DNA of 64,000 nucleotides. Source: Pristiophorus japonicus (lineage: Eukaryota). Under the pieces are notes generated by a model. It saw only the letters and a program-made list of their open reading frames with translations. It made no database searches and was not told the DNA's origin. Every line of letters starts with the position of its first letter. Within the stretch, counting starts at the first letter, position 1. Below are positions 14,935 through 15,640 of the stretch, in pieces. The translations under genes and the position numbers were made by a program. The stretch spans positions 281,170,001-281,234,000 of the forward strand of contig NC_091979.1 in the NCBI RefSeq assembly GCF_044704955.1. Reading direction: 5' to 3'.

Positions 14935-15640
14935 GAAACATGGAAACATAGAAACATAGAAAATAGGTGCAGGAGTAGGCCATTCGCCGCTTCGAGCCTG
15001 CACCACCATTCAATATGATCATGGCTGATCACCCACCCCACCACCTCCCCCCCCCACACCCCCCGACCCCTCCAGCCGCAAGGACCACATCCAACTCCCA
15101 CCCGAACACATCCAATGAACTGGCATCAACAACTCTCCACGGCAGGGAACCCCACAGGCCAACTCCCCGAGTGAAGAAGTCTCTCCCAAACCCAGCCCCA
15201 AACAGCCCAACCCCCATCCGAAGAGTGTGCCCCCCCTTCCCCGGCTCCGGACCCACCCAACACCGGGAACACTCCCCCCGCACCCAACCCGCCATGTCCC
15301 GTCAGAATCCTTCCCAAATGCCGAACACCCCCAGATGTCGAGCCCCCAGCCCCGGCCACCCCAGAGCCACGCCCCCGCGACGCCAACCACACCACATCCA
15401 CTAACCGCCATCTGCGCAGTCAACCCGTCCACCCCACTCCGAACACTCCCCACACCGAGGCACAGAGCCCCCAGGCCCGCCCCTCCAACACACTTCGCCC
15501 CCCCAGACCTCCGCTGCAATGTGGCCCCTCCCGTCCCCCGCCCTGGGTTTCTCCGCCCCCCCACCTCCACCACTCTCCCCTCCATCCCCCGCCCCCGTCT
15601 CCCCTCAACTTCCCTCTGCCTCCCCGCACAGGCTCCCATC
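14935..15640 (-). mobile_element. Internally deleted CR1 copy with strand-specific A>G (T>C on +) hypermutation
   Basis: Normal CR1 tail at 14935-15031. 15032-15310 aligns to CR1 3' ends (e.g. 49371-49655). 15311-15640 aligns to the endonuclease/ORF2 start (52003-52290, 25570-25902) once C is read as T. Confidence 0.93.

What the first reader, a model, noticed from the sequence alone, without database searches (positions are those of the whole stretch)
15032..15640. Genomic fossil of a hyper-edited LINE RNA: CR1 copy with about 70% of sense-strand A converted to G
Seen: the C-rich tract is CR1 sequence. Ungapped hand alignment of 15311-15550 to the sibling CR1 at 52003-52242 gives 62 of 88 T positions changed to C, only 4 other mismatches (3 G>A, 1 A>C), and no A>G or C>T. 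The same pattern runs through 15032-15310 against the CR1 3' ends. The element is on the minus strand, so this is A>G on its RNA. In that segment 11/12 sense UA sites versus 9/16 sense GA sites are converted. Established: ADAR deaminates A to I in long dsRNA, disfavours a 5' G neighbour, and RT copies I as G. APOBEC editing gives G>A on the sense strand, and GC-biased conversion is strand-symmetric, so neither fits. Inference: a CR1 transcript paired with antisense CR1 RNA, was hyper-edited, and was then retrotransposed in the germline, necessarily in trans. That implies heritable RNA-editing-based mutagenesis or restriction of LINEs, whose products repeat maskers would hide as low-complexity DNA. 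I cannot check the literature for prior reports in this lineage.
Basis: partly seen in the sequence, partly recalled or inferred. Interest (0 to 1): 0.92.

Follow-up and report, generated by a model that had tools for sequence, protein, structure and literature searches.

The report
Retroposon family founded by ADAR-edited LINE
The C-rich tract is one of more than a thousand copies of a composite jumping element whose body is a LINE fragment in which about 70% of the adenosines became guanosines, most likely by the RNA-editing enzyme ADAR before the RNA was copied back into the germline, so RNA editing appears to have founded a new mobile family that also carries a satellite repeat.

Summary
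It belongs to a non-autonomous family with 892 exact hits for a junction 22-mer, about 1,200 or more copies. Its parts are a 37-bp satellite head, an unedited 158-bp repeat piece, two fused CR1 pieces (about 2.35 kb deleted) and an intact CR1 tail.

Against the nearest CR1 lineage, 141 of 204 sense A are G, with 19 other substitutions. The 5' neighbour order is U 29/29, A 54/68, C 28/41, G 30/66, the ADAR order. All 27 aligned copies share the edits, so one edited RNA founded the family.

Editing recurred. A motif outside the family gave 13 triple-A>G hits, 0 triple-T>C hits and 35,507 unedited hits. Eleven hits are clearly edited separate insertions, and the ten copies that keep the tail have it unedited. 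Two satellite arrays of about 30 and about 65 kb end on a family core.

ADAR is inferred from the signature, not shown. Ten literature searches found no such family.

The parts
14939..15031 (-). Unedited CR1 3' tail: stem-loop-forming segment plus (TTTCTATG)n repeats; the likely signal for the parent's reverse transcriptase
   Evidence: Family majority has 1 A>G in 17 A downstream of TGATCAG; 2 of 185 A-site observations edited in the last 100 nt of 10 separate edited copies; 8-nt repeat; MFE shows a GGUGCAGG/CCUGCACC stem but z=-0.41 against shuffles
15032..15306 (-). Hyper-edited CR1 3' piece (end of ORF2 and start of the 3' UTR)
   Evidence: 57 of 81 A/G-state sites are G against 20 nearest unedited copies; 9 other substitutions
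15307..15310 (-). Deletion junction removing about 2.35 kb of ORF2; microhomology GAT on the sense strand (AGGAT if one A was already edited); no GT donor
   Evidence: Matches 49283-49653 and 51999-52308; parent flanks; 892 exact hits for the edited junction, 0 for the unedited one
15311..15640 (-). Hyper-edited CR1 5' piece (spacer before ORF2 and the first ~55 codons of the endonuclease domain)
   Evidence: 84 of 124 A>G against 7 nearest parents, 10 other substitutions; the parent ORF hits PF03372 and PF14529
15641..15798 (-). 158-bp 'U' segment, a piece of an older dispersed MITE-like repeat; not edited
   Evidence: 69-75% identity to L155/L156; A>G at 3 of 34 A against L155, G>A 7; found with other neighbours at 2 loci
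15799..16704 (-). 5' head of 37/38-bp tandem units (24.4 copies here); the same unit forms arrays of tens to hundreds of kb elsewhere
   Evidence: TRF; heads of 0-4 kb in other copies; no shared sequence beyond 16704; arrays on C4 and C13 end on a family core

Best explanation
Step 1 (inferred): RNA of one CR1 sub-lineage sometimes formed long duplexes in the germline, with antisense CR1 RNA or an inverted copy in the same transcript, and ADAR deaminated up to 70% of its A. Step 2 (shown as sequence, mechanism inferred): such RNAs were still reverse-transcribed when the last ~90 nt stayed intact, so inosine was fixed as G. This happened repeatedly, in roughly 1 of 1,000 insertions of the lineage. 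Step 3 (inferred): one heavily edited copy, 5'-truncated and with a 2.35-kb deletion at a short microhomology, came to lie behind a MITE-like piece and a 37-bp tandem array. Step 4 (shown as copy structure): read-through transcripts of that locus became a non-autonomous master, copied in trans by CR1 proteins through the intact tail, giving more than 1,000 5'-truncated copies 2-4% from their majority. Step 5 (inferred): the heads turn over after insertion and some grew to arrays of tens of kb. The window copy is an ordinary daughter of this family.
For: Spectrum 141 A>G vs 19 others, T>C 0. 5' order U>A>C>G in the family and pooled over 12 separate copies: 231/554, 374/1007, 200/800, 204/1312. 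PMC3113232 (Results, part 1 read) reports the 5' neighbour as most influential, U and A preferred, C and G less. Strand test 13 vs 0 of 35,507, chance expectation 0.03-0.43. Twin pair L157 (unedited) vs L142: 34 A>G and 7 other differences in 929 columns. Edits ignore codon position (0.31, 0.31, 0.28) while 62 of 97 subfamily-variable sites are third positions. The 20 nearest ordinary copies show no excess: A>G 56/6238, T>C 64/5197. The tail is spared everywhere. Family copies share the edits, carry different flanks and tails ending in the CR1 repeat, and are 5'-truncated. No unedited version of either junction was found.
Against: No enzyme, transcript or dsRNA partner was seen, and ADAR genes were not searched in this genome. 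The 3' neighbour effect is not significant in the family (p=0.46) and is only modest in the pooled copies. The founding locus was not found, so the order of editing, deletion and capture is not fixed. L142 and L152 share 8 of their 12 and 11 strict edits against 1.1 expected, so not all single copies need be independent. L150 (0.04) lies within the sibling range overall. The strand test used one motif per direction, and the two motifs are not equally sensitive. A 710-kb three-letter screen found no edited repeat outside the family. Human cell work reports that ADAR1 and ADAR2 restrict L1 without editing it (PMC12925331 passages; PMC8677026 abstract and headings). Two of the 4 resolved array ends carry no family core.
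Confidence: 0.85

Rival explanations
1. Same editing, different order: the composite (head + U + CR1, unedited) existed first, and its transcript was edited only where it paired with antisense CR1 RNA; the edited daughter then became the master.
For: U and the heads are unedited, as expected if only the CR1 part had a partner. Editing runs up to the U junction and across the deletion.
Against: 0 hits for the unedited U-CR1 junction and 0 for the unedited deletion junction; exact patterns would miss a single diverged precursor. Plain edited CR1 insertions without head or deletion exist, which supplies the raw material for the main reading.
Confidence: 0.2
2. A non-ADAR process: the CR1 reverse transcriptase occasionally misreads template A (nucleotide-pool imbalance or an error-prone state), or a deaminase acts on the DNA:RNA hybrid during reverse transcription.
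For: It would also be strand-specific, blind to codon position and all-or-none per insertion. PMC12925331 (passages) notes that ADARs can act on DNA:RNA hybrids in model substrates.
Against: Only A>G rises; other A changes stay at background. The 5' order U>A>C>G matches ADAR. Deaminating A in the cDNA strand would read as sense T>C, which is absent. Edits come in patches with shared hot spots.
Confidence: 0.08
3. Gradual evolution of a G-rich non-autonomous CR1 subfamily by mutation bias, GC-biased conversion or selection; no burst.
For: The body is shared by more than 1,000 copies, as any subfamily's diagnostic changes would be.
Against: 141 A>G against 0 T>C, whereas biased conversion is strand-symmetric; only 19 other changes over the same branch; no intermediates found; single copies and a near-identical twin show the burst directly; the copies' later changes are mainly G>A and C>T.
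Confidence: 0.03
4. Assembly or base-calling artefact.
For: C-rich tracts are error-prone, and homopolymer lengths vary among copies.
Against: The same letters occur at hundreds of loci on both strands and in contigs from 3 studies.
Confidence: 0.01
5. On the satellite only: it predates the family and the large arrays arose independently; cores at array ends are the founder region or later recombination products rather than seeds.
For: The C5 array and the second C4 array end on other repeats without a core; L067 has satellite stretches with no core.
Against: Two arrays (about 30 and about 65 kb, sampled by probes) join U at the normal junction, with cores 3.5% and 4.2% from the majority and unrelated flanks. 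Unit order differs between heads from the first unit on, so heads are remodelled after insertion.
Confidence: 0.35

Closest known systems
ADAR hyper-editing fixed in proviral DNA of exogenous retroviruses (Rous-associated virus, avian leukosis virus; PMC12925331, passages)
   Same: Clustered A>G at about half of the adenosines on the RNA strand, carried into DNA by reverse transcription
   Different: Here it is a non-LTR element, in the germline, recurrent, and one product founded a family of more than 1,000 copies
APOBEC 'DNA editing' of LTR elements fixed in vertebrate genomes (PMC4866542, PMC2873906, passages)
   Same: Strand-biased, clustered deaminase footprints in single genomic retroelement copies, found by copy-to-copy comparison
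   Different: G>A on cDNA rather than A>G on RNA; LTR elements rather than a LINE; read as a disabling defence
SVA, LAVA, PVA, FVA composite retrotransposons (PMC5753468, passages)
   Same: Non-autonomous composite of older repeat pieces with a tandem array of 35-50-bp units, mobilised by a LINE
   Different: Depends on a CR1-type tail, not L1; the array is the 5' head and also a large satellite; the body was made by hyper-editing; no sequence homology is claimed
SINEs and other non-autonomous elements sharing the 3' tail of a stringent LINE (PMC4176376, abstract)
   Same: An intact cognate 3' tail is kept while the rest is dispensable
   Different: No tRNA, 5S or 7SL head found (Rfam 0 matches); the head is satellite DNA
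Transposon-derived or transposon-spread satellites (PMC9659126, passages)
   Same: Internal tandem repeats of a mobile element linked to long arrays
   Different: The listed cases are mostly MITEs and Helitrons or LINE fragments that became monomers; here a retroposon carries the array at its 5' end

Membership tests
ADAR hyper-editing footprint | A>G dominates all other classes | tested here: met
   141 vs 19; 34 vs 7 in the twin pair
ADAR hyper-editing footprint | One strand only (RNA sense) | tested here: met
   T>C 0 in the family body; 13 vs 0 genome-wide for one motif pair; T>C 0.007-0.031 in 12 single copies
ADAR hyper-editing footprint | 5' neighbour U and A preferred, G disfavoured | tested here: met
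   29/29, 54/68, 28/41, 30/66; pooled 0.42, 0.37, 0.25, 0.16
ADAR hyper-editing footprint | Weak 3' G preference | tested here: inconclusive
   Family p=0.46; pooled singles G 0.32, A 0.30, U 0.22, C 0.21
ADAR hyper-editing footprint | Long dsRNA substrate and inosine in the RNA | not testable with these tools
   No partner strand identified; no raw RNA reads were available to lay
ADAR hyper-editing footprint | ADAR genes present in the host | not tested
   Assumed from general knowledge of animals
CR1-group LINE (parent) | ORF2 with N-terminal apurinic-type endonuclease | tested here: met
   PF03372 E=2e-10 and PF14529 above cut-off in L164
CR1-group LINE (parent) | 3' short tandem-repeat tail and 5' truncation | tested here: met
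   (TTTCTATG)n tails and variable 5' ends
CR1-group LINE (parent) | RT domain placing it in the CR1 rather than the L2 clade | not tested
Non-autonomous LINE-dependent retroposon | Many dispersed copies with a shared 3' end, variable 5' ends and no coding capacity | tested here: met
Non-autonomous LINE-dependent retroposon | Target-site duplications | tested here: inconclusive
   7-8-nt matches overlapping the tail in a few of 29 copies (L007, L047, L050); most matches are short enough for chance; CATG on both sides in the window
SINE (strict sense) | Pol III head from tRNA, 5S or 7SL RNA | tested here: not met
   No Rfam match at E<=1 in 14800-17000; no shared 5' end beyond the array
SVA/LAVA family | Alu-like and SINE-R parts, L1 dependence | tested here: not met
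   The parts are satellite, MITE-like and CR1; it works like SVA but is not a member
APOBEC DNA editing | G>A on the sense strand | tested here: not met
   G>A 5 vs A>G 141

The most novel reading that the evidence does not exclude
ADAR editing is a recurrent, heritable mutagen of LINE insertions in this germline and can create new mobile families. By rewriting about a quarter of the body (identity to the parent 72-75%, one identical run longer than 13 nt outside the tail, GC 0.46-0.49 to 0.68-0.70, CpG 10 to 37) while sparing the tail, it freed one copy from homology-based silencing and further duplex formation with CR1 antisense RNA. That copy became a master that has been seeding a satellite, some of whose arrays grew to tens of kb.
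Probability: 0.35. Interest if true: 0.93.

Novelty: new variant of a known kind. Interest (0 to 1): 0.83.

Why it matters
It shows RNA-level deamination written into a germline genome at scale and then amplified. In human cell assays ADARs are reported to restrict L1 without editing it, so fixed, dated, countable edited LINE copies give direct in vivo evidence on ADAR-LINE contact. They also map the RNA surface that the reverse transcriptase needs, namely the spared tail. The family offers a natural test of whether hypermutation helps a parasite escape silencing, and of whether retroposons disperse satellites. Such copies look like G- or C-rich low-complexity DNA, so a three-letter search of other animal genomes may reveal more.

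Tried and rejected
No RNA holder listed in the run search, so expression is untested. Unedited deletion junction: 0 hits. Unedited U-CR1 junction: 0 hits. Pattern for the founder's expected MITE-like 3' flank: 0 hits; the flanks of the two array-anchored cores do not match that repeat.

Three-letter all-vs-all on 99 loci (710 kb; satellite and duplicate loci left out): 95 candidate windows, 78 classed as family. The other 17 were, by inspection, family tails, purine-rich noise and one subfamily difference. Splicing as the cause of the deletion: no GT donor. A shared 5' end beyond the array: none. Collinear unit order among 12 heads: not seen. Continued editing of heads: A>G 0.014 in heads vs 0.017 in arrays. 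Low-level editing in ordinary copies: none. Tail fold stability above shuffles: not shown. Rfam: nothing.

L154 was dropped from the 13 motif hits because it diverges in all classes over most of its length; L009, L014 and L018 were dropped as duplicates of L008. My first reference mixed subfamilies and slightly inflated the count (146/209); the nearest lineage gives 141/204. The first codon test failed on frame choice and was redone.

Full report
Observation. The tract joins two parts of one LINE lineage: 14943-15309 matches the 3' end (49283-49653) and 15307-15640 matches a part about 2.35 kb upstream (51999-52308, 25570-25902). The parent's ORF2 begins with an apurinic-type endonuclease domain (PF03372, PF14529). 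From memory the repeats look like those of a cartilaginous fish, which I did not test.

It is a family. A search of the own genome gave 2,408 first-look candidates. All 40 scored (39 besides the window) cover at least 599 of 609 nt, the 39 at 92-94%. An unchanged 22-mer across the edited junction occurs 892 times, 445 on + and 447 on -, with the backwards control at 0. It is intact in 20 of 27 aligned copies, which suggests about 1,200 junction-bearing copies or more, since those 27 are the best-scoring. After dropping 3 segmental duplicates, the 27 copies lie 1.8-4.0% from their majority, and their own changes are mostly G>A and C>T. The G-rich state was therefore inherited from one master. 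Contigs of 4 of 4 runs laid (3 studies, 2 organism labels) carry it, for example a 268-nt contig over 15239-15504 with 7 differences. The best run may be the assembly's source, but an artefact is excluded by the two-strand, multi-locus agreement.

Anatomy, in the sense direction. First comes a head of 37/38-bp tandem units (15799-16704), 0-4 kb long in other dispersed copies with no common 5' end. Next is a 158-bp piece of an older MITE-like repeat, 69-75% identical to L155/L156 and not edited (A>G at 3 of 34 A). Then follow the edited 5' CR1 piece, a junction with a 3-nt microhomology (5 nt if one A was edited) and no splice donor, the edited 3' piece, and an unedited tail ending in (TTTCTATG)n. 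There is no Pol III-type head. Target-site duplications are suggested in a few of 29 copies but are inconclusive.

Signature. I compared the family with the nearest unedited lineage (20 of the 40 hits fetched; 20 cover the 3' piece, 7 the 5' piece). The body has 141 of 204 A changed to G, 19 other substitutions and no T>C. By 5' neighbour the counts are U 29/29, A 54/68, C 28/41 and G 30/66 (G against the rest p=8e-7); the 3' neighbour is not significant (p=0.46). PMC3113232 (abstract and first part of Results read) reports that the 5' neighbour matters most, with U and A preferred and C and G less. The tail has 1 edit in 17 A (p=2e-7 against the body).

Recurrence and strand test. I used a 27-nt motif from the part of CR1 that the family lacks. 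It has 35,507 unedited hits, 13 hits with three forced A>G and 0 with three forced T>C; chance would give 0.03-0.43. One hit (L154) diverges in all classes and was dropped. The other 12 are separate insertions with different flanks and lengths. At strict sites their A>G fraction is 0.34-0.54 in seven, 0.09-0.14 in four and 0.04 in one (L150, borderline, a local patch). Sixty-nine ordinary sibling alignments give a mean of 0.008 and a maximum of 0.045. The pooled 5' order is again U 0.42, A 0.37, C 0.25, G 0.16. In the last 100 nt only 2 of 185 site observations are edited (10 copies). Edit sets differ (median Jaccard 0.25 over 66 pairs), although L142 and L152 share 8 strict edits against 1.1 expected and may have a common source or hot spot. 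L142 has an unedited near-twin, L157, from which it differs by 34 A>G and 7 other changes in 929 columns. Edits ignore codon position (316/1004, 304/979, 129/464), unlike subfamily-variable sites (62 of 97 at third positions). The 20 nearest ordinary copies show no A>G excess (56/6238 against T>C 64/5197). One diagnostic base is present in 10 of 12 edited copies, 8 of 20 nearest unedited copies and 1 of 30 general siblings, so editing is concentrated in one sub-lineage. With 18 parent-type 3' ends in 400 kb of random sequence and allowing for the chance of three simultaneous edits, I infer about 1 edited insertion per 1,000, a few hundred in the genome. A 710-kb screen found none outside the family, consistent with that rarity.

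Satellite. The head unit also forms long arrays with the same unit types. I followed seven arrays toward their sense 3' ends. Two end on a complete family core at the normal junction: C4, about 29-31 kb, and C13, about 64-68 kb, both sized by spaced probes. Their cores are 30/854 and 36/866 from the majority and their flanks are unrelated. Two arrays end on other repeats, one at a run of 200 N, one at a contig end after more than 300 kb, and one end was not located. Unit order differs among 12 heads from the first unit on. I infer that heads are remodelled and sometimes greatly expanded after insertion; the satellite may still be older than the family.

Mechanism. Shown: the spectrum, context, strand, tail sparing, recurrence, shared edits in the family and the composite anatomy. 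Inferred: ADAR as the enzyme, a long duplex with antisense or inverted CR1 RNA, copying of I as G, and dependence on the parent's ORF2 through the tail. By analogy, PMC4176376 (abstract) shows that stringent LINE proteins bind the cognate tail stem-loop. No unedited form of either junction was found, which favours an edited, deleted insertion being captured later. The founder was not found, so the order is open. Editing left the body 72-75% identical to the parent, raised GC to about 0.69 and raised CpG from 10 to 37. Whether that helped the master escape silencing is a hypothesis.

Known and new. ADAR-type A>G in proviral DNA of exogenous retroviruses is described (PMC12925331, passages). Fixed APOBEC G>A footprints in LTR elements are described (PMC4866542 and PMC2873906, passages; their supplements were not read and may hold A>G tallies). 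SVA-type composites and transposon-linked satellites are described (PMC5753468, PMC9659126, passages). Human assays report L1 restriction by ADARs without editing (PMC12925331 passages; PMC8677026 abstract and headings). Ten full-text searches (listings only, open-access library) showed no germline LINE copies fixed after ADAR hyper-editing and no family founded by one; subscription papers and repeat databases were not searchable. Unchecked notes of this scan report single A>G-edited LINE or LTR copies in other genomes, so the single-copy phenomenon may be widespread. The amplified family with a satellite head is what is new here.

Verdict. Observation confirmed; interpretation partly supported and extended. 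New variant of a known kind, interest 0.83, confidence in the main reading 0.85.

Noticed in passing
L142-L153: Twelve further CR1 insertions with sense A>G excess (11 clear, 1 borderline), some edited over at least 1.9 kb; the ten that keep the tail have it unedited.
   Followed up: yes
L197:1488-3000 and L214:817-1920: Family cores anchoring satellite arrays of about 30 kb (C4) and about 65 kb (C13).
   Followed up: partly
L056-L063, L243-L247 (G000:C3830): A 395-kb contig that is satellite at all probes from 82 kb to its end; L192-L194, L212, L213, L240 and L241 show an array of about 100 kb on C17. Possibly centromeric, not tested.
   Followed up: partly
L067:3204-4589 and 5549-5625: Satellite stretches of 1.4 kb and 77 bp with no U segment or edited core.
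   Followed up: partly
L008, L009, L014, L018 (G000:C22:37.12-37.19 Mb): Four near-identical family copies with identical flanks: a local segmental or tandem duplication.
   Followed up: no
window 9142-14660, 30877-32185, 42186-46712: Pieces of LTR-type (Gypsy-like, by recall) elements similar to each other; the L197 core sits in similar sequence.
   Followed up: no
window 5939-6270: Short GC-rich, G-skewed tandem tract; not an edited repeat in the three-letter screen.
   Followed up: partly
window 15532, 15440, 15608, 15665: Columns split among family copies, suggesting several sub-masters.
   Followed up: no
L154: A CR1 copy whose 3' ~600 nt follow this lineage while the rest diverges in all classes: a probable chimera of two subfamilies.
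   Followed up: no
run X6 laid on window 14960-15800: A run with a second organism label holds contigs with the edited body and the U segment, so the family may predate a species split.
   Followed up: no
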